Source: a bacterium
GTDB lineage: Bacteria; UBA8248
NCBI GenBank assembly: GCA_965219955.1
Contig: OZ244799.1
Location: 4,096,001-4,160,000 of the forward strand
Length of the DNA stretch: 64,000 nt
Direction of reading: 5' to 3'
In this document: piece after piece, positions 16,914-50,597 of the stretch
Layout: the number at the start of each line of letters is the position of its first letter
Numbering within the stretch: position 1 is the stretch's first letter
Translations under genes and position numbers: made by a program
The notes under the pieces: model-generated
What the model saw: the letters and a program-made list of their open reading frames with translations, nothing else
Database searches by the model: none
What the model was told of the DNA's origin: nothing

Positions 16914-17351
16914 TTGAATTCCCTGGGCCGCCACCTGCTGGCGGAATTCTATGACTGCGAAACCGGGGCCCTGAACGATCCCGCGCAGATCGAGCGGTTG
17001 ATGAACGAGGCCGCGCGCCTGAGCGGGGCCACCGTCGTCCAGAGCGTGTTCCACACCTTCAGCCCCCACGGGGTGAGCGGGGTGGTCGTGGTGGAGGAAA
17101 GCCACCTGGCCGTGCATACCTGGCCCGAGCACAACTACGCGGCGGTGGACTATTTCTCCTGCGGGGAAGTCGATTGCGACGCGGCGGTGCGCTATCTCGC
17201 GGAACACCTCGCGCCCGGGCGCGTGGAGACGAGAGAGGTCCCGCGCGGCGTCATCGAAGAACGCGAGGCGTCGCTCGACGCGCCGTTCGCATCGAACGGA
17301 GAGGGAGAGGCCTCCCGCGCCTTCAAGAACGGAGAGGGGCGCGAACGATGA
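16914..17351 (+). CDS. speD: S-adenosylmethionine decarboxylase proenzyme (class 1B)
   Basis: [29 protein letters not shown] pyruvoyl cleavage motif. Confidence 0.92.
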
Positions 17352-17815
17352 TCGTCGCGACGCCGACCAGGTATTTCCTGGCGCACGGGAGTGCCGAGGG
17401 CGTGACGGAGCTCAACGCCTTCGACGCGGCGCTTCTGCGCGCGGGCGTGGGCGACACGAACCTCGTGCGCGTGAGCAGCATCCTGCCGCCCGGATGCGAG
17501 GGGGTGGAGCCTCCCCCGCTGCCGCCGGGCGCGCTCGTGCCGGCGGCCTACGCGTCCGTGACTTCCTCGGTACCCGGCGAGGTGATCACCGCGGCGGTGG
17601 CGGTCGCCTTGCCCGAAGACGAGGCCCGCCCCGGCCTCATCATGGAGCATCACGGCCACGCCCCGCGCGCGCGTGTGGAAGAGGAGGCCCGGCGCATGGC
17701 GGAGGCGGGCATGGCGTATCGCGGAACGATGGTCCGGGAGATCCGGAGCGTCGCCGCCGAGCACGTCGTGATGAATACCGGCGCCGCCTTCGCGGGAGTC
17801 ATCCTTTGGAACTGA
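17348..17815 (+). CDS. pdaD: Pyruvoyl-dependent arginine decarboxylase
   Basis: [27 protein letters not shown] motif; ATGA overlap with speD. Confidence 0.9.
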
Positions 17816-17829
17816 CGCGCGCCCCCTTC

Positions 17830-18687
17830 ATGCCCGAAAGCCCTCCGCCCAAGCCGGCGACCTGGTTCACCGAGTACCACGGACCCGGCACCGGCCTCAC
17901 GATGAAGGTGCTGCGGACGCTCTATTCGGAGAGGAGCGCGTTTCAGGAGATCACCCTCGTGGAGACCGAGGATTTCGGGCGCGTCCTCCTGCTCGACGGG
18001 ATCATCCAGACCACCGAGCGCGACGAGTTCGTCTACCACGAGATGCTGGTCCACGTGCCCCTGTGTATGCATACCGATCCAAAGAACGTCCTCATCGTCG
18101 GCGGAGGCGACGGCGGCTGCGTACGCGAGGCGCTGCGCCACGAGACGGTGGAGAAAGTGACGCTCGTCGAGATCGACGGGATGGTGGTGGAGTGCTGCCG
18201 CGAGTTCCTGCCGTCCATCGCGGGAGGCCTGAACGACCCCCGCGTGGAGGTGCGGATAGAGGACGGGGTGAAGTTCATTGAGGGCAAAGAAGCAGCCTTC
18301 GACGTCATCCTGGTCGATTCCACGGATCCCGTCGCCATGGCGAATCCGCTCACGCAGGTCTCCTTTTTCCGCGCGGCCAAGCGCGCCCTCAGGCCCGGCG
18401 GCCTCTACGCCGCGCAGACGCAAGGCCCCGTGTTCGAGGGTCACAGGATGCGGCGCATCACGAGGCGCATCCGGCGGGTGTTCCCGGGCGCGGCGACGTA
18501 TCTCGCGAACGTGCCGACCTATCCGGGGGGGATATGGTCTTTCGCGCTCGCGCCCGAATCGAGGAGAACGGACGTCCGCGCGAAGCCGAGGCCGATGCCG
18601 CAGGCTGAGAAGACCCATTACTACTCCCCGGAAGTCCATGAGGCCGCCTTCACGCATCCCCCCTACGTGGCGGAGATTCTCGGCTGA
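17830..18687 (+). CDS. speE: Polyamine aminopropyltransferase (spermidine synthase)
   Basis: LLDGIIQTTERDEFVYHE, GGGDGG, DSTDP motifs. Confidence 0.93.
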   Translation: MPESPPPKPATWFTEYHGPGTGLTMKVLRTLYSERSAFQEITLVETEDFGRVLLLDGIIQTTERDEFVYHEMLVHVPLCMHTDPKNVLIVGGGDGGCVREALRHETVEKVTLVEIDGMVVECCREFLPSIAGGLNDPRVEVRIEDGVKFIEGKEAAFDVILVDSTDPVAMANPLTQVSFFRAAKRALRPGGLYAAQTQGPVFEGHRMRRITRRIRRVFPGAATYLANVPTYPGGIWSFALAPESRRTDVRAKPRPMPQAEKTHYYSPEVHEAAFTHPPYVAEILG

Positions 18688-19544
18688 TGGGCGGGGAGGC
18701 CCGCCCGCGTTTTCTCTGCGCCGAAACCCCTTTCGAATCAGCGCGCGTCGTTCTCCTGGGGTGCCCCTTCGATGAGACGGCGAGCTTCCGCCGGGGCGCG
18801 CGTTTTGGGCCTGACGCCATCCGCGAAGCGTCCGATTGCCTCGAAACCTACAGCCCGCATCTGGATAAGGATTTGAGCGACGCCGCCCTGTGCGATATGG
18901 GCGACGTTGATTTTGTGTCCGACGATACGGAATCCGTTCTCGATTCCATCCGCTCCGAAGCTTTAGGGGTATTCCGGGCGGGCAAGCGCCCCATATTCCT
19001 GGGCGGTGAGCATCTGGTGAGCCTGCCCGCCGTGGAGGCGGCGCTGGGCGTCTTCCCCGGTCTTGCCGTATTCCAGTGGGACGCCCACGCGGACTTGCGC
19101 GACGACTACCTCGGCGGGCGCCTCTCGCACGCCTGCGTGATGCGGCGCATCCTGGAGCTTGAGGGCGTCGGGCCGCTCCATCAGTTCGGCGTCCGCTCGG
19201 GTACGCGCGAGGAGTTCGAATGGATGCGCGCGAACGACACCATGCGGCTCTTGAGTCCTGAGGCCGTATCGGCGGCGCTTCAGGAGACGGGCGATAGCGC
19301 CGTATACCTCACCCTCGACGTGGACGTCGTGAACCCCGGCGAGATGCCCGGAACCGGCAGCCCCGAACCCGGCGGCCCGGGGCTTGATGCGCTCATCGAT
19401 TGCATCCGTGTTCTCGACGCCTCGGGCGCGCGCATCATCGGCGCCGACGTGGTGGAACTCGCGCCGGAATGGGATCCCTCGGGTGCCAGCGCCGTCGCCG
19501 CCGCGAAGATAGTCCGAGAATTGACGCTCGTGCTGGGAGCGTGA
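18687..19544 (+). CDS. speB: Agmatinase / ureohydrolase
   Basis: GGEH, DAHADLRD, SHAC, LDVDV, GTGSPEPGG motifs. Confidence 0.92.
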   Translation: MGGEARPRFLCAETPFESARVVLLGCPFDETASFRRGARFGPDAIREASDCLETYSPHLDKDLSDAALCDMGDVDFVSDDTESVLDSIRSEALGVFRAGKRPIFLGGEHLVSLPAVEAALGVFPGLAVFQWDAHADLRDDYLGGRLSHACVMRRILELEGVGPLHQFGVRSGTREEFEWMRANDTMRLLSPEAVSAALQETGDSAVYLTLDVDVVNPGEMPGTGSPEPGGPGLDALIDCIRVLDASGARIIGADVVELAPEWDPSGASAVAAAKIVRELTLVLGA

Positions 19545-19562
19545 GGGGGCAAATTTTTCCTG

Positions 19563-19591
19563 TTGACGAAGACTCGTAACAGTGGCATAGT
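19563..19591 (+). promoter_or_regulatory. Putative sigma70 promoter upstream of the NYN cassette
   Basis: TTGACG 19563-19568, 17 bp, CATAGT 19586-19591 with an extended TG. Confidence 0.5.
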
Positions 19592-19597
19592 TTTTTC

Positions 19598-19658
19598 ACT
19601 ACTCCCCCAGGGGTTTCGACCGCTGGGTGCGGGGCCTCGGACGAGGCCCTGCTTTTTT
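19598..19658 (+). ncRNA. Candidate ~60-nt structured RNA/leader ending in an intrinsic terminator
   Basis: Hairpin CCCAG-G-GGU-UUCG-ACC-G-CUGGG (19606-19627) followed by a terminator hairpin. Confidence 0.5.
19629..19658 (+). terminator. Rho-independent terminator 10 nt before the NYN start codon
   Basis: GCGGGGCCTC-GGAC-GAGGCCCTGC followed by TTTTTT. Confidence 0.8.
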
Positions 19659-19668
19659 CAGGTAAGAT

Positions 19669-20292
19669 ATGCGGACTTATATCTACGTCGATGGATTCAA
19701 TCTCTACTACCGCTCGCTGAAGCAAACGCCGTTCAAATGGCTCGATCTCTCCGGGCTTTTCCGTGACGTGTTGAAGCCCCACCACGATATCCGCAAAATC
19801 AAATTCTTCACGGCGCGCGTCTCGGCACGACCTAACAATCTATCTGCACCGCAACGCCAGGACACTTATTTGCGAGCGTTAAAACATTATTGCCCGGAGG
19901 TTGAAGCTTATTTCGGGCATTTTCTGACGCATAAGATTCAAGCGCCGCTTGCCGATACCGGCAACAGGCGAAGGCTGGTGAATGTCGTCAGGACCGAGGA
20001 GAAGGGATCGGATGTAAATCTTGCCGTACACCTCCTGAATGATGCGTGGCTGAATGACTATGACTGCGCGGTAGTAGTTACGAACGACAGCGATATCGCC
20101 GAGGGCATGCGTCTCGTGAAAAAGCACAAAAGAAAATGGATTGGACTGGTAACACCCGGAACGAGTCATCCCTCTCGAGAGTTAATGGCCCATGCCGATT
20201 TCTCCCGCCGGATTCAAAAGAGAGCGCTGCGAAAGAATCAGCTTCCGTCCCCGATTCCCGGAACCAACATCACCAAGCCGACCAACTGGTGA
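19669..20292 (+). CDS. NYN (LabA/PIN-like) domain nuclease
   Basis: YVDGFNLY, EEKGSDVNLA, VTNDSD, ADF catalytic acidic motifs. Confidence 0.9.
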   Translation: MRTYIYVDGFNLYYRSLKQTPFKWLDLSGLFRDVLKPHHDIRKIKFFTARVSARPNNLSAPQRQDTYLRALKHYCPEVEAYFGHFLTHKIQAPLADTGNRRRLVNVVRTEEKGSDVNLAVHLLNDAWLNDYDCAVVVTNDSDIAEGMRLVKKHKRKWIGLVTPGTSHPSRELMAHADFSRRIQKRALRKNQLPSPIPGTNITKPTNW

Positions 20293-20430
20293 ATTCGCTT
20301 GACTCCTGTTGCTGGAACACCCGCCCTGATCGCCGTCGCCGCATGGTCTTTGCTTTTTGTGCCCGGAGATGGGGATGTCTGGGCATCCACCACGGGTTAC
20401 ATGCGTATTCGTATTCAGGTCAGGTGAGGC

Positions 20431-20793
20431 ATGGACAGGCAAGGACATACTGGCTTCTGGGCGCTGGCGCTCCTGTGGCTGCCGGCCGGGATGGTCGCGA
20501 CCGTCATCGTGCGTTTCGGGGCCGAGCCGGCCATTTGGGCGCAGATGCCGATGGCGATGGTGTCGCTTATCCCGGTCGCGCCCTGCGGCCTTCCGCTGGC
20601 GCTGGGGTGCCGGCGGCTGTGGCGGCTGGGCTACCGCCGCGACGCCTGGGTGGCGGGAGTCTTGCTTGGCGTTTTCACTCTGGCGACGACGCTGGTGGGT
20701 GGACTGCTCGGCCCGATAGCCATCGCCCTCTTCGCGGTGGTCTTGAGCCTGCCGGTCTGGGCGGCGTCGTGGTGGCTCGCGCGGCGGGGTTGA
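20431..20793 (+). CDS. Small integral membrane protein of unknown function
   Basis: About four hydrophobic segments; GGTGAGG RBS. Confidence 0.55.
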   Translation: MDRQGHTGFWALALLWLPAGMVATVIVRFGAEPAIWAQMPMAMVSLIPVAPCGLPLALGCRRLWRLGYRRDAWVAGVLLGVFTLATTLVGGLLGPIAIALFAVVLSLPVWAASWWLARRG

Positions 20794-20837
20794 GGGTGGG
20801 TACCTAAGAGGACAACAAAATACTGGGAAATGATCGA

Positions 20838-21407
20838 ATGGAAAAACGCATAGCTTTGCTTGGTTGGGGTTCTCTCCTTTGGGATAACAATAAGCAATTC
20901 GACGACTGGCATGGGCCTTGGCAAAGTGATGGTCCTACACTCAAAATTGAATTTTCTAGAATTTCTTCGTCCCGATGTGGTGCCCTAACGCTAGTCATAG
21001 ATCCAGACAATGGATTTGCCAATTCAGTATCTTGGGCCCTGAGCTATCGTTCAGAGCTTAGTGATGTCATTCAGGATCTGAAAAAACGAGAAAAAACCAT
21101 TTACAAATACATCGGTAGATTTTCTTTTGGAGGATACGAACATAGTTTAGACAGCAGTTCGCTCTCGGCAATCCGCAGTTGGGCAAATGAGCGTGGGCTG
21201 TATGGAGTCGTGTGGACAGACCTACCTAGTAACTTTGTGAAAGAAACCGGCTATTCCTTCTCAATTCATAATGCTTTGCAACATCTGCAAAGCCTAGATG
21301 ACTGTGCTAGGAAAAAGGCACTTGAATATATTCAAAAAGCTCCAGGTTCTATCCAAACACCGCTTCGTAACGCTATTGCACATCAACTGGAAAGTGGATT
21401 GACATGA
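20838..21407 (+). CDS. Gamma-glutamylcyclotransferase-like fold hypothetical protein, low GC
   Basis: IALLGWGSLLW, IEFSRIS, LTLVID, LKKRE motifs; strongly AT-rich. Confidence 0.6.
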   Translation: MEKRIALLGWGSLLWDNNKQFDDWHGPWQSDGPTLKIEFSRISSSRCGALTLVIDPDNGFANSVSWALSYRSELSDVIQDLKKREKTIYKYIGRFSFGGYEHSLDSSSLSAIRSWANERGLYGVVWTDLPSNFVKETGYSFSIHNALQHLQSLDDCARKKALEYIQKAPGSIQTPLRNAIAHQLESGLT

Positions 21408-21428
21408 ATTAAGTTTCTAAGCTCCCCC

Positions 21429-22163
21429 CTAACCCCCCTCCGCCTCGACGGCTTCCGCCATCTCGCCCATCGAGAAGAAGATGAAGTCGGTCGTGGGCAT
21501 GTTCTCGACCTTTTCCGTCGCTCCCCAGCTTCCGCCTTCGGAGAGCCTCTGCCGGTCGATCCAGGCGTTGGCGAGGCCGAAACGGTTCGCGGGCGCGTGG
21601 TCGTGGCGCAGGCTCTGCGCGGTGTGGAGGACGTCGGATTTCTCCAGCCCGAAGTCCGATTTCAGATGCGCGAGGAGGTACTCGAAGTTGGCGTCCGAAG
21701 GCTTGTAGGAGCCGATGTCCTCGGCGGTGTAGACCGCGTCGAACGCGACGCCGAGTTTCCTGTTCGAGGCGGCGAAGCCCTCGCGGTGGACGTTCGAGAG
21801 GATGACGAGCTTGTAGCGCCGCTTCAGGACGCGAAGCGCGTCCGCGGTATCGGGAAACGCCGGCCACAGCGGCACCGATGCGCCGAACGCTTGATCGAGC
21901 GCGCCGCTCGTCTCGAGGCCCAGGCTCTCCGCCATGCTCCGGTGGACTTTTGCGAGGAGGTCGGGATAGCGAAGCCCGGGCGAGGCGTGCTCGTGGTGGG
22001 CCTCCCACTTCGCGAAGGCCAGGAGTGTGGCCTCGCGCGTCACGCCTGAGTCGCCGCCTCCCATGATGAGCGGCTGCAGCGCGTCCCAGATGCCGGTCTC
22101 CCAGTCGATGAGGGTGCCGTAGCAGTCGAACGTCAGTACGCGGTAATCGGTCAGTCGGCCCAT
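21429..22163 (-). CDS. HAD-superfamily hydrolase (haloacid dehalogenase type II-like)
   Basis: FDCYGTLIDWE, LSNV, SYKP, HTAQSLRHDH motifs. Confidence 0.9.
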   Translation of the reverse strand: MGRLTDYRVLTFDCYGTLIDWETGIWDALQPLIMGGGDSGVTREATLLAFAKWEAHHEHASPGLRYPDLLAKVHRSMAESLGLETSGALDQAFGASVPLWPAFPDTADALRVLKRRYKLVILSNVHREGFAASNRKLGVAFDAVYTAEDIGSYKPSDANFEYLLAHLKSDFGLEKSDVLHTAQSLRHDHAPANRFGLANAWIDRQRLSEGGSWGATEKVENMPTTDFIFFSMGEMAEAVEAEGG

Positions 22164-22306
22164 GGTTCCGGTTTCCTGTGCGGGGGGATTCGGGTCTGCA
22201 CGATCAAAGTTTCTATGGCTGTGAGCGGGGGGTGTCAAGGGCCGCGCCACCAGCGTGAACGACACCCAAGCCGCAACGAAGCCGCGTACCGAAGCACACG
22301 CAACCC

Positions 22307-22441
22307 GTCATTCCGGCGAAAGCCGGAATCCATTCGCCTTTCGTTTTTATACTGTCGTTCCCGGCCCGATCATCGAGAAAAGAGAATGCCGTTATATGCG
22401 CGCCTCGTCTCTTTTTGGATTCCGGCTTTCGCCGGAATGAC
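22307..22441. repeat. Family A palindromic repeat pair
   Basis: GTCATTCCGGCGAAAGCCGGAATCC ... GGATTCCGGCTTTCGCCGGAATGAC. Confidence 0.9.
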
Positions 22442-22644
22442 GGCGCGTATCGGGGTTTCATTCAAACCCGGTTTGCATGGCGGAAGGAAATGTTTGTATA
22501 GTATAAATATCTTTGTGATTGATAAGATTGTATACAGTATACTTTATGGACGGCGGTTTTCCTCCGCGAATCGTTGATGGGGTAACCCGCTGATAATCAA
22601 AGTATTTCTGGAGCCGATTCATCATCTTGCGCTTGGAGACGCCC

Positions 22645-49409: not shown

Positions 49410-50597
49410 GTGCAGAATCACTCTCTACCCCTGTCCCGTTTCAAGGTCCTGGATCTCACCCGCGCGCGGGCCGGCCCCACGGCGGTTCGCCAGTTCGCGG
49501 ACTGGGGGGCGGACGTCATCAAGATAGAGGCGCCGCCCACGAGCGGCTTTTCGGACAACATGGCCCAGCCCCGGAGCGGGTATGAGGCGCAGAACCTGCA
49601 CCGCAACAAGAGGGGCATGACCCTCAACCTGCGCGAGGAAAAGGGCCGCGAGATATTCTTCCGCATGGTGAAAGACGCCGACGTGGTGATCGAGAACTAC
49701 CGGCCCGACGTGAAGCACCGCCTGGGCGTGGATTACGAGGCCTGTCGCGCCGTGAACCCGCGCATCGTCTACGGGAGCATCTCCGGCTTCGGGCAGGAGG
49801 GACCCTACAGCAAGCGACCGGGGCTGGACATGACGGCCCAGGGGCTGAGCGGCCTCATGTCCGTCACCGGCAAGCCTGGCGAGGGGCCCATGCGTGTGGG
49901 CATTCCGCTCGCCGATCTGTCTGCCGGCTTCATGCTCGCGCAGGGGATTATGATCGCCCTGCTCGAGCGCGAAGTCTCGGGTGAGGGGCAATGGGTGCAC
50001 ACCTCGCTTCTCGAAGCCCAGATTCAGATGATGGACTTCCAGGCCGCGAGATACCTGCTTTTCGAGGACGTGCCCACCCAGCAGGGGAACAACCACCCCA
50101 CCTTTTTGCCGGCGGGCGTTTTCGAGACCGCGGACGGGCGGATCATCATCCAGTCCGGTCCCCAGCATCTCTGGGAGCGCCTCGTGAACGCGCTGGAATT
50201 GCCCGAGCTGCTCGAGAATCCCGATTACGGGAGCGTGCCGAAGCGCTTCGAGAACAAAGAGGCCCTGCACGAGACCATCACCCGCCGCACGCGGGCGAAG
50301 CCGGGTGCGGAGTGGATCGAGATACTGAACGAGGCGGGAATCCCCTGCGGGCCCATCTACACGGTGGACAAGACGTTCGCCGATCCCCAGGTGAAGGGGC
50401 TGAACATGTCGCCCGAGGTCGAGCACCCCGAGATGGGGCCGATAAAGATCGTGGGCCAGGCGGTCAAGCTCGCCCGCACGCCGCAGAAGATGCGCAACTC
50501 GACGCCCGAGGTGGGCGAGCATACGGAAGAGATTTTGAAGAATTTGGGCTACGATGCGGACGCGATAAGTCGATTGCGCGATGCGGGCATCGTCTAG
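49410..50597 (+). CDS. CaiB/BaiF family CoA-transferase
   Basis: VLDLTRARAGP, RNKRG, ENYRP, SGFGQEGP motifs. Confidence 0.93.
   Translation: MQNHSLPLSRFKVLDLTRARAGPTAVRQFADWGADVIKIEAPPTSGFSDNMAQPRSGYEAQNLHRNKRGMTLNLREEKGREIFFRMVKDADVVIENYRPDVKHRLGVDYEACRAVNPRIVYGSISGFGQEGPYSKRPGLDMTAQGLSGLMSVTGKPGEGPMRVGIPLADLSAGFMLAQGIMIALLEREVSGEGQWVHTSLLEAQIQMMDFQAARYLLFEDVPTQQGNNHPTFLPAGVFETADGRIIIQSGPQHLWERLVNALELPELLENPDYGSVPKRFENKEALHETITRRTRAKPGAEWIEILNEAGIPCGPIYTVDKTFADPQVKGLNMSPEVEHPEMGPIKIVGQAVKLARTPQKMRNSTPEVGEHTEEILKNLGYDADAISRLRDAGIV

What the first reader, a model, noticed from the sequence alone, without database searches (positions are those of the whole stretch)
19563..20292. Promoter - short structured RNA - terminator - NYN nuclease cassette: candidate RNA-antitoxin or defence module
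Seen: a sigma70-like promoter (TTGACG-17-CATAGT), a UUCG-tetraloop hairpin (19606-19627), then a strong 10-bp intrinsic terminator with a U6 tail (19629-19658) ending only 10 nt before the ATG of an NYN/PIN-like nuclease with intact acidic motifs. The nuclease has no room for its own promoter, so it would be made only by read-through, with a ~60-nt RNA in excess. Established: RNA-terminator-RNase is the layout of type III TA systems (ToxIN, CptIN, TenpIN). Inference: this is a repeat-less RNA antitoxin or attenuator paired with an NYN toxin. No protein antitoxin is evident.
Basis: partly seen in the sequence, partly recalled or inferred. Interest (0 to 1): 0.78.

Follow-up and report, generated by a model that had tools for sequence, protein, structure and literature searches.

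The report
Conserved small RNA–NYN nuclease module
A short, tightly folded RNA gene with its own promoter and terminator sits directly in front of a predicted RNA-cutting enzyme, and the same pairing recurs in many unrelated bacteria, plasmids and a prophage, which points to an undescribed RNA-controlled toxin or defence module.

Summary

None of these is significant alone; conservation is what makes them so. A covariance model finds the same two-hairpin element next to the NYN gene in 74 of 80 homologous loci from many phyla (E<=1e-5). Both stems covary: 19 of 20 pairs change on both sides, and 91.8% of cells pair against 38-55% in slid controls. A sigma-70-like promoter sits 11-14 nt upstream.

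No protein neighbour is conserved. Three loci keep the RNA gene adjacent but inverted, so it is an independent gene. Small E. coli plasmids carry 4-5 tandem hairpin units before the terminator and NYN.

Rfam has no such family, and my literature searches found no description. The protein matches PADLOC candidate HEC-09, published as a single gene with no defence phenotype.

Best reading: a type III-like RNA-antitoxin/NYN-toxin module. Toxicity and RNA binding are untested.

The parts
19563..19591 (+). Sigma-70-type promoter-like site (TTGACG, 17-nt spacer, CATAGT, TG-extended) for the small RNA
   Evidence: 9 of 12 matches. A match of >=9/12 lies within 70 nt upstream in 45 of 79 RNA copies, against 14 of 400 random 70-mers from the same loci. 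The -10 hexamer ends 11-14 nt before hairpin 1 in 34 of the 57 copies with >=8/12.
19598..19658 (+). Predicted small RNA of about 60 nt: short C-rich 5' tail, hairpin 1, 1-3 nt linker, terminator hairpin, U-tract. The 5' end is inferred from promoter geometry, not mapped.
   Evidence: The covariance model R1 hits window 19595-19658 at 64.3 bits, E 6.4e-17. The structure is supported by covariation. The strand is set by 124 G.U cells against 22 A.C cells.
19606..19627 (+). Hairpin 1: about 9 bp with one mismatch and a UUCG tetraloop. This is the unit that is tandemly repeated in E. coli plasmid relatives.
   Evidence: All 9 pairs change on both sides somewhere in the family. The loop reads UUCG in 64 of 79 copies. 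Arrays of 4-5 such units occur in L082 and L091.
19629..19658 (+). Hairpin 2, an intrinsic terminator: 10-bp G+C-rich stem and 4-nt loop, with a conserved GC...UGC base, followed by U6.
   Evidence: Ten of 11 pairs change on both sides and 97.8% of cells are paired. Five or six T in the 6 columns after UGC in 60 of 79 copies.
19660..19666 (+). Shine-Dalgarno-like AGGTAAG in the 10-nt spacer between U-tract and ATG
   Evidence: Read directly; inference only.
19669..20292 (+). NYN-domain (LabA/MARF1-like, PIN-like fold) predicted metal-dependent ribonuclease, 207 aa. It belongs to the PADLOC candidate family HEC-09.
   Evidence: Pfam PF01936 E 1.2e-8. PADLOC PDLC04163 HEC-09 E 2.2e-40 over residues 2-207. 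AlphaFold2 model with pLDDT 89.2. Best Foldseek matches are 2qip and the MARF1 NYN domains 6fdl and 5yaa. Invariant D8, D115, D140 and D142 in 33 sequences. 7502 homologues at E<=1e-3.

Best explanation
This is a self-contained two-gene module: a small structured RNA and an NYN ribonuclease. It most likely works like a type III toxin-antitoxin or abortive-infection system.

Shown by computation:
- A constitutive-looking sigma-70 promoter starts transcription about 5-8 nt before a UUCG-capped hairpin.
- A strong intrinsic terminator follows immediately.
- The NYN ORF begins about 10 nt after the U-tract, so no promoter of its own fits in between.
- RNA and protein gene travel together through many phyla, plasmids and a prophage, with no other conserved partner.

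Inferred:
- Most transcripts stop at the terminator. This gives a roughly 60-nt RNA in large excess over the rare read-through NYN mRNA.
- The RNA binds NYN, probably through hairpin 1, and keeps its exposed active site blocked. In the tandem-array variants NYN may also cut the array into units.
- When transcription of the module stops (phage shut-off, loss of the plasmid or island), the RNA pool falls. Free NYN then cleaves cellular or phage RNA and arrests growth.
For: (1) Conservation of the cassette. Model R1 finds the element next to NYN in 74 of 80 loci at E<=1e-5. Weaker hits occur in L073 and L078. L032 and L053 hold no upstream DNA and L060 holds 48 nt. Only L066 has upstream DNA and no hit. 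Copies not used to build the model are also found: L024, L029, L031, L072, L076, L077, and the plasmid and phage loci L081, L083, L084, L085 and L094.

(2) RNA-level structure. In the sequence-only MAFFT alignment, all 15 predicted pairs show compensatory changes. In the refined 20-pair structure, 19 pairs change on both sides. 91.8% of cells are paired, against 73.6% in shuffles and 38-55% when partners are slid. Covariation is 0.552 against 0.216, with 0 of 500 shuffles as high. G.U cells outnumber A.C cells 124 to 22.

(3) Own promoter.

(4) Terminator-then-gene geometry. The median gap is 12 nt and 67 of 73 gaps are <=30 nt.

(5) No conserved protein neighbour. Excluding NYN, the largest neighbour cluster spans 4 loci. 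No conserved ORF of >=25 aa lies within 450 nt downstream, apart from the three syntenic close relatives.

(6) Trans-acting signature. The RNA gene is divergent in L076 and convergent in the Mycobacterium prophage L083 and the Paenarthrobacter plasmid L085. In L076 and L083 it has its own promoter-like site.

(7) Type III-like arrays. ColE1-type E. coli plasmids carry 4 (L082) or 5 (L091) tandem hairpin units of 29-33 nt, then one terminator, then NYN.

(8) Selfish or mobile distribution. The module is a low-GC islet in the window. Homologues occur in 452 plasmid records, including 3.4-4.6 kb plasmids where NYN is one of 3-6 genes. By my reading of Pfam names, 20 of 133 scanned neighbours are mobile or defence genes.

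(9) A bacterial CRISPR-associated NYN is a Mn2+-dependent ssRNA nuclease (abstract).
Against: - No experiment supports toxicity, RNA binding or defence.
- The only tested family member (HEC-09) protected against none of the phages tried in E. coli (passages).
- The RNA is built from very stable elements: G+C-rich stems, a UUCG loop and a terminator. A classic labile antitoxin would not look like this.
- In the window the RNA is a single unit, not a repeat array.
- The toxin fold is unrelated to ToxN, CptN or TenpN.
- About 51 of 70 loci have a co-oriented upstream ORF, so the terminator could also serve upstream genes there.
- The 80 loci are the best 80 of 589 confirmed matches, so they lean towards closer relatives.
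- In more distant NYN homologues (29-36% identity) R1 does not score. The related architecture there rests on inspection, RNAfold and a 6-sequence RNAalifold run.
- One locus, L092, showed nothing recognisable.
Confidence: 0.5

Rival explanations
1. Purely cis-acting leader or attenuator. Promoter, hairpins and terminator exist only to keep NYN expression very low, or to let it rise under some signal (a protein or ligand that suppresses termination, or NYN cleaving its own leader as feedback). The released short RNA has no function of its own.
For: In 73 loci the element is co-oriented and ends a median 12 nt before the start codon. This is the classic attenuator layout. Nucleases that regulate themselves through a structured part of their own mRNA are known; RNase E and Regnase-1 are examples I recall, not ones I checked here.
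Against: In L076, L083 and L085 the RNA gene is on the other strand and cannot be part of the NYN mRNA leader. By inspection of alignment A4 I saw no conserved alternative (antiterminator) pairing. Hairpin 1 and the terminator are separate helices, each supported by covariation. Tandem arrays of hairpin 1 are not expected of an attenuator.
Confidence: 0.2
2. The RNA is a substrate, cofactor or structural subunit of NYN rather than its inhibitor. In this reading an RNA-protein particle is the active species, or NYN matures an RNA that acts elsewhere.
For: The same strict RNA-NYN co-occurrence and trans arrangement as above. The very stable RNA design fits a structural subunit better than a labile antidote. 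This would also fit the absence of toxicity problems in the published HEC-09 cloning (passages).
Against: The RNA has no variable single-stranded segment that could act as a guide. The variable positions are stem positions that covary. The terminator placed between the RNA and the gene gives RNA in excess, which is typical of an antidote.
Confidence: 0.15
3. It is not an RNA gene at all. The palindromes would be DNA-level signals (a recombination or insertion site of a mobile cassette), or an ordinary terminator of the upstream operon that happens to precede NYN.
For: The module is mobile and small, and in the window the terminator would also stop speB-operon transcripts. L001 and L002 show a second, decayed or orphan copy at a nearby variable site.
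Against: G.U pairs outnumber A.C 124 to 22, which fits RNA of this strand and not duplex DNA. The U-tract and an upstream promoter are conserved. The upstream ORF is divergent in 19 of 70 loci. No flanking direct or inverted repeats bound the module in the window.
Confidence: 0.04

Closest known systems
Type III toxin-antitoxin systems ToxIN, CptIN and TenpIN (details recalled from the literature, not read here)
   Same: Gene order of promoter, antitoxin RNA, intrinsic terminator, then endoribonuclease toxin. RNA is made in excess by termination. There is no protein antitoxin. The systems sit on plasmids and mobile islands. The E. coli plasmid relatives even have tandem RNA units before the terminator.
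   Different: The toxin fold is NYN/PIN-like, not ToxN/AbiQ-like. The RNA in this window is a single unit of two simple hairpins, not a 2-5.5-copy repeat array. RNA binding, processing and toxicity have not been shown.
AvcID, a type III system with an sRNA antitoxin and a deoxycytidylate deaminase toxin (start of abstract of PMC10511110, seen in the listing)
   Same: It shows that type III logic is not tied to ToxN-type RNases.
   Different: The toxin enzyme is different. No sequence or structural relation between the RNAs was tested. That AvcI is non-repetitive and lies directly upstream of avcD is recalled, not read.
HEC-09, the Hma-embedded candidate defence gene (Payne et al., bioRxiv 10.1101/2024.01.29.577857; passages read)
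   Same: Same protein family: full-length match to the PADLOC model at E 2.2e-40. It has the NYN fold with MARF1-like aspartates.
   Different: It was published as a single protein-coding gene. The passages I read mention no RNA partner. It gave no defence against the phages tested. Here it is not embedded in an Hma system but sits after a polyamine operon.
LabA/NYN.COG1432 proteins, PDB 2qip and the MARF1 NYN domain (Matelska et al. 2017, PMC5499597, passages; Foldseek)
   Same: Same fold and acidic active-site motifs.
   Different: Sequence identity to the solved structures is 10-18%. A profile of the family finds no PDB chain by sequence at E<=1. No RNA partner is described for those proteins in the passages read.
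CRISPR-associated NYN ribonuclease of Bacteroides fragilis (Chi and White, bioRxiv 10.1101/2024.04.08.588522; abstract only)
   Same: A bacterial NYN protein with demonstrated Mn2+-dependent ssRNA cleavage that works on a structured, repeat-derived RNA.
   Different: It is an accessory crRNA-trimming enzyme, not an RNA-gene/nuclease pair. Homology to this subfamily was not tested.

Membership tests
Type III toxin-antitoxin systems (ToxIN/CptIN/TenpIN) | Gene order of promoter, RNA gene, intrinsic terminator, toxin gene, on one strand | tested here: met
   Window. Family: 73 loci with the RNA co-oriented, median 12 nt before the start codon, and a promoter upstream.
Type III toxin-antitoxin systems (ToxIN/CptIN/TenpIN) | Antitoxin RNA made of tandem direct repeats | tested here: not met
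   The window has one unit only: a single R1 hit at 19595-19658 and no direct repeats there. The feature is met in relatives: 4 units in L082, 5 in L091, and 2 whole motifs in L077.
Type III toxin-antitoxin systems (ToxIN/CptIN/TenpIN) | Toxin belongs to the ToxN/AbiQ, CptN or TenpN protein families | tested here: not met
   Pfam gives only NYN and PADLOC gives only HEC-09. The fold matches NYN structures.
Type III toxin-antitoxin systems (ToxIN/CptIN/TenpIN) | RNA binds the toxin protein directly and neutralises it; the toxin processes the RNA | not testable with these tools
   Needs co-expression, pull-down or EMSA, and cleavage mapping.
Type III toxin-antitoxin systems (ToxIN/CptIN/TenpIN) | Toxin alone arrests growth | not testable with these tools
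   No experimental data were found. The HEC-09 construct in the literature carried its native upstream region (passages).
HEC-09 (PADLOC candidate defence family) | Match to the PADLOC HMM PDLC04163 | tested here: met
   E 2.2e-40, residues 2-207 on profile positions 3-202 of 203.
HEC-09 (PADLOC candidate defence family) | Embedded within an Hma (helicase-methylase-ATPase) system. This is the discovery context rather than a strict requirement. | tested here: not met
   The window neighbours are speB, a 120-aa ORF with no family, a 189-aa ORF and a HAD hydrolase. A few other loci do sit among helicase, ATPase or methylase genes: L043, L051, L057 and L071.
HEC-09 (PADLOC candidate defence family) | Anti-phage activity | not testable with these tools
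   The literature reports none against the phages tested (passages).
NYN domain (Pfam PF01936, LabA-like) | Pfam model above its gathering score | tested here: met
   36.1 bits against 24.2.
NYN domain (Pfam PF01936, LabA-like) | PIN-like NYN fold | tested here: met
   AlphaFold2 model with pLDDT 89.2 and pTM 0.83. Foldseek gives 2qip at E 9.5e-8, and 6fdl and 5yaa at E about 1e-4.
NYN domain (Pfam PF01936, LabA-like) | Conserved acidic metal-binding residues | tested here: met
   D8, D115, D140 and D142 are invariant in 33 sequences. Their catalytic role is taken from recalled LabA/NYN motifs and from the statement that HEC-09 shares three aspartates with MARF1 (passages). Their positions were not checked in the model.
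Any Rfam 15 RNA family | Covariance-model match | tested here: not met
   No match at E<=1 in window 18000-22000. No family overlaps the motif in 8 other loci. Across the whole window at gathering score only a tRNA was found.
Intrinsic (Rho-independent) terminator | G+C-rich stem-loop followed by a U-tract | tested here: met
   Five or six T in the 6 columns after the stem in 60 of 79 copies. Termination itself was not measured.

The most novel reading that the evidence does not exclude
The small RNA is not an antidote but an obligate subunit of a new kind of RNA-protein immune or addiction effector. In this reading, a UUCG-hairpin RNA holds NYN in a poised particle that is switched on by a phage or plasmid-loss signal. 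The wider NYN/HEC-09 superfamily (thousands of genes, including those on Klebsiella, Xanthomonas and E. coli plasmids) would then be a previously unseen class of ribonucleoprotein systems. The more conservative novel reading is that this is a new, very widespread superfamily of type III toxin-antitoxin systems with an NYN toxin. I put that at about 0.5.
Probability: 0.12. Interest if true: 0.9.

Novelty: new variant of a known kind. Interest (0 to 1): 0.8.

Why it matters
Very few type III toxin-antitoxin families are known. I recall three classic families, plus AvcID. All were found through tandem repeats or by accident.

If this reading holds, it adds a family with a different toxin fold (NYN) and a different RNA design. 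The family has 7502 homologues at E<=1e-3 in the searched database. It occurs in many bacterial phyla, in 452 plasmid records and in a prophage.

It would also explain a published negative result. HEC-09 was treated as a single-gene candidate. If the cloned upstream region included the RNA and its terminator, inducing transcription from outside would mainly raise the RNA. This is inference; the supplement that would settle it was closed.

Independently of function, the RNA is a well-supported structured RNA class that is absent from Rfam.

The E. coli plasmid versions make the question directly testable in a laboratory strain.

Tried and rejected
- **Rfam.** Nothing on the motif in the window or in 8 other loci.
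- **PDB by sequence.** A family profile found 0 chains at E<=1. Only fold comparison found relatives.
- **NCBIfam.** No family for NYN or for the two ORFs downstream.
- **Second R1 hit in the window.** 50252-50319 on the minus strand, 19 bits, E 0.014. It lies in G+C-rich sequence with no U-tract and I rejected it as chance.
- **Selection on the RNA in L033.** I tested whether the RNA is better conserved than the flanking DNA in the three tandem partial duplications. Promoter, RNA and the NYN 5' fragment are similarly conserved, so the duplication is recent and uninformative.
- **L002 orphan RNA copy (2183-2247).** It lies before a 65-aa ORF and a Fic-domain ORF. I considered this as evidence that the RNA serves other cargo genes. 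I set it aside because L001 has a decayed RNA-plus-NYN remnant near a comparable position, just before a long minus-strand ORF. An orphan left by gene loss is therefore as likely.
- **Flanking repeats.** None bound the module in the window.
- **Protein partner.** No conserved neighbour of >=70 aa and no conserved small ORF downstream.
- **Antiterminator pairing.** I looked by eye in A4 for pairing between the 5' C-run and the terminator's 5' arm. It is not maintained across subgroups. This is inspection only.
- **R1 on distant NYN homologues (29-36% identity).** No significant hits. Their related architecture rests on weaker evidence.
- **Literature searches that found no description of an RNA partner of NYN.**, plus a term search inside one 2026 preprint on intergenic RNA clusters.
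- **Not done.** Complex prediction was not used because it cannot take RNA. The RNA was therefore never searched for on its own in a large collection.
Full report
**What is in the window**

The 124-nt gap between the stop of an arginase-family speB (18687-19544) and the next ORF contains four elements in order:
- A sigma-70-like site: TTGACG, a 17-nt spacer, CATAGT (19563-19591), with 9 of 12 matches and a TG extension.
- A hairpin with a UUCG loop (19606-19627).
- A 10-bp G+C-rich hairpin followed by T6 (19629-19658).
- Ten nt later, the ATG of a 207-aa ORF (19669-20292).

speB is the last gene of a speD / arginine decarboxylase / speE / speB operon. The gap folds better than all 200 shuffles (z = -3.29).

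The promoter and terminator matches alone are at chance frequency for this 3-kb stretch.

The ORF is an NYN domain protein:
- Pfam PF01936, E 1.2e-8.
- A full-length match to PADLOC candidate HEC-09, E 2.2e-40.
- It models confidently (pLDDT 89.2). The model resembles the LabA-like protein 2qip and the MARF1 NYN domains.
- A sequence profile finds no solved relative.

The gene is a low-GC islet: about 0.49-0.55 against 0.64-0.69 in speB.

**The element is conserved with the gene**

The protein has 7502 homologues at E<=1e-3. The best 120 are 65-99% identical, and a 33-sequence alignment has 78% mean column identity.

A scan of one genome per species returned 589 confirmed loci, and the best 80 were kept. 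A plain terminator scan found a G+C-rich hairpin followed by a near-constant UGC and U-run just upstream of most of them. Printing the upstream 160 nt showed the same two-hairpin pattern throughout, with different stem sequences.

I aligned 69 trimmed copies with MAFFT. RNAalifold predicted 15 pairs, every one with compensatory changes. A covariance model (R1) was then run over the window and all 80 loci (657 kb).
- It gave 79 hits at E<=1e-5, covering the window (64.3 bits) and 74 loci.
- L073 and L078 have weaker hits, and L060 holds only 48 nt upstream and gives a truncated hit.
- L032 and L053 have no upstream DNA.
- Only L066 has upstream DNA and no hit. Its contig ends 23 nt after the gene.

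The model necessarily matches its 69 seed sequences. It also found copies that were not in the seed: L024, L029, L031, L072, L076, L077, and later plasmid and phage loci.

Outside the neighbourhood of NYN genes or NYN fragments, the only hit at E<=1e-5 was one orphan copy in L002.

**Structure and strand**

I tested a refined 20-pair structure on the model-fitted alignment.
- 19 of 20 pairs change on both sides.
- 91.8% of cells form standard pairs, against 73.6% in column shuffles and 38-55% when partners are slid by 1-3 columns.
- The covariation score is 0.552 against 0.216, with 0 of 500 shuffles as high.

The sequences are related and the alignment was fitted to the model, so these numbers lean towards the structure. 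The slid controls and the independent MAFFT result argue that the signal is real.

G.U/U.G cells outnumber A.C/C.A cells 124 to 22 out of 1552. This places the structure in RNA of the NYN-sense strand rather than in DNA. Hairpin 1 has a UUCG loop in 64 of 79 copies. The six columns after the conserved UGC hold 5-6 T in 60 of 79 copies.

**It is a transcription unit**

A sigma-70 match of >=9/12 lies within 70 nt upstream of 45 of 79 copies, against 14 of 400 random 70-mers from the same loci. Among the 57 copies with >=8/12, the -10 hexamer ends 11-14 nt before hairpin 1 in 34. That places the start about 5-8 nt before the hairpin, near 19598 in the window, and gives an RNA of about 60 nt.

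In 73 loci the RNA is co-oriented with NYN. It ends a median 12 nt before the predicted start, and 67 of 73 gaps are <=30 nt. In those loci NYN can only be transcribed through the terminator.

In 19 of 70 loci the nearest upstream ORF of >=100 aa is on the other strand. The terminator is therefore not simply the end of an upstream gene.

**Nothing else is conserved**

I clustered 689 greedy ORF calls from the 80 loci. This gave one large cluster, NYN itself (79 ORFs in 76 loci), and nothing else spanning more than 4 loci. No ORF of >=25 aa is conserved within 450 nt downstream, except among the three syntenic close relatives.

I scanned 133 immediate neighbours against Pfam; 14 of 147 were dropped to fit the size limit. 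The neighbours are heterogeneous.
- Housekeeping genes are common. In L015 the module sits between two M16 peptidase genes.
- By my reading of the family names, 20 neighbours are mobile or defence genes. They include TrwC relaxases, integrases, transposases, a DruA-like protein, Schlafen/AlbA, AbiEii-like ATPases, SAVED, DUF1156, a DNA methylase, HNH, KilA-N and Fic.

This scatter is what one expects of a small selfish module.

**Evidence that the RNA acts on its own**

In three loci the RNA gene stays adjacent to NYN but is inverted.
- In L076 the RNA gene is divergent from NYN and has an 11/12 promoter match of its own.
- In Mycobacterium prophage prophiGD43A-1 (L083) it is convergent, with a TTGACA-containing promoter-like stretch upstream. 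The end of its U-tract overlaps the NYN stop codon (53.7 bits).
- In a Paenarthrobacter plasmid (L085) it is again convergent just downstream (52.8 bits).

In these three loci the RNA cannot be part of the NYN leader, yet it is kept next to the gene. This argues against a purely cis-acting attenuator.

**Plasmids and arrays**

tblastn finds the protein in 452 plasmid records, all below 60% identity. The largest groups are Klebsiella (207), Xanthomonas (60) and Escherichia (48). It also occurs in 3 phage records.

R1 finds the RNA in front of NYN on three plasmids:
- A Leptospira plasmid (49 bits).
- A Phaeobacter plasmid (28.1 bits).
- The 3461-bp E. coli plasmid pKMi006_5 (25.6 bits), which has only three annotated genes.

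In 4.6-kb ColE1-type E. coli plasmids the upstream region carries a promoter-like site, then four tandem hairpin units of 29-33 nt. These closely resemble hairpin 1 together with its C-rich 5' flank. One terminator follows, then NYN (L082; TRF score 156). A sister plasmid has five units (L091).
- 17 plasmid records carry this array.
- It is present in 10 of 5426 complete E. coli genomes, always on plasmids.
- The 3461-bp plasmid type is present in 4 of 5426.

L077 has two whole motifs in tandem. Hairpin 1 therefore looks like the functional repeat unit and hairpin 2 like the terminator.

In more distant homologues (29-36% identity; Klebsiella, Xanthomonas, Pseudomonas, Cupriavidus, Thiothrix, Acetobacter, Granulicella) R1 does not score. 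Inspection, RNAfold and a 6-sequence RNAalifold run show a CCCC...GGGG-closed hairpin plus a terminator directly before the start codon. This part is a lead, not a tested result. One Rhodococcus locus showed nothing recognisable.

**How it most likely works**

Shown by computation:
- The gene order and the RNA structure.
- The promoter.
- The RNA-NYN linkage, its independence of orientation, and the arrays.
- The absence of any protein partner.

Inferred:
- Termination yields the RNA in excess.
- The RNA binds NYN and masks it.
- Loss of transcription frees the nuclease.

The closest working model is a type III toxin-antitoxin or abortive-infection system. It is not a member of the ToxIN, CptIN or TenpIN families, because the toxin fold differs and the window's RNA is not repeated.

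Weaknesses:
- There are no experimental data.
- HEC-09 showed no defence in the published test.
- The RNA looks very stable.

I put the type III-like reading at 0.5, a pure attenuator at 0.2, an RNA cofactor, substrate or ribonucleoprotein at 0.15, and a DNA-level or incidental element at 0.04.

**Novelty**

Rfam 15 has no matching family.

The full-text searches gave the following:
- 'NYN domain' with 'type III toxin-antitoxin': 0 papers.
- None of the 15 listed (of 33 found) RNA-motif papers contains 'NYN'.
- 'RNA antitoxin' with 'NYN': one review, seen only in the listing.
- Two further searches gave nothing relevant.
- A 2026 preprint on intergenic RNA clusters does not contain the terms antitoxin, LabA or defense, and had zero occurrences of 'NYN' in the listing. 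It reports a PhoH2-associated RNA, which is a different case (term passages).

Papers outside the held library, and the closed bioRxiv supplements, could still hold a description.

I rate this a new variant of a known kind: type III-like logic with a new toxin fold and a new RNA class. Interest is 0.8.

Noticed in passing
window 20838-21407 (+); compare L002 2183-3277 and L001 6702-6800: A 189-aa ORF of low GC (0.41-0.47) lies two genes after NYN. It has no Pfam hit above cut-off. The protein atlas gives a lead to gamma-glutamylcyclotransferase/AIG2-like proteins. After the shared 120-aa ORF, close relatives carry other cargo instead. L002 has an orphan copy of the RNA motif followed by a 65-aa ORF and a Fic-domain ORF. 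L001 has a decayed RNA half plus an internally deleted NYN remnant. The site looks like a hot spot for small cassettes.
   Followed up: partly
window 22305-22443: A 139-nt element bounded by perfect 28-nt inverted repeats, in a low-GC gap. It looks like a miniature inverted-repeat or REP-type element. It produces look-alike ORF translations on both strands.
   Followed up: no
L033 3090-4300 and L056 4671-5031: Tandem partial duplications of promoter, RNA and the first ~170 nt of NYN. L033 has three units of about 390 nt, two of them with decayed NYN fragments. L056 has a second RNA copy followed by an NYN fragment.
   Followed up: yes
L089 1474-2436 and L090 1471-2412: Longer NYN homologues (313-320 aa), annotated as 6-hydroxy-3-succinoylpyridine hydroxylase or as 'antitoxin Xre/MbcA/ParS toxin-binding domain' protein. 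That is an NYN domain fused to a DUF2384-type domain. They also have a hairpin plus terminator directly upstream.
   Followed up: partly
L086, L087, L088, L096 upstream of NYN: In the Xanthomonas, Klebsiella and Thiothrix plasmid homologues the first hairpin is enlarged by an insert with a shared AUUAAGUU-like core (seen clearly in L086 and L088; variant forms in L087 and L096). This may be a second class of the RNA.
   Followed up: partly
L096 1898-2413 (-): A ProQ/FinO-family RNA chaperone gene lies convergent and 20 nt downstream of NYN on a Thiothrix plasmid. Proteins of this family bind terminator hairpins with U-tails (recalled). This is a single case.
   Followed up: no
L081 (E. coli plasmid pKMi006_5, 3461 bp): Besides NYN and an HTH protein, the only other annotated gene is a VbhA-family antitoxin, with no annotated Fic partner. 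This recalls the 65-aa ORF plus Fic pair next to the orphan RNA in L002.
   Followed up: no
L009 7014-7210 (-): A group I intron-like match at 49.8 bits, just under the Rfam gathering score of 50.
   Followed up: no
window 16914-19544: A compact polyamine operon upstream: SAM decarboxylase, pyruvoyl-dependent arginine decarboxylase, spermidine synthase and agmatinase. No terminator-like site lies between its end and the RNA's terminator, so operon transcripts probably also stop there.
   Followed up: partly
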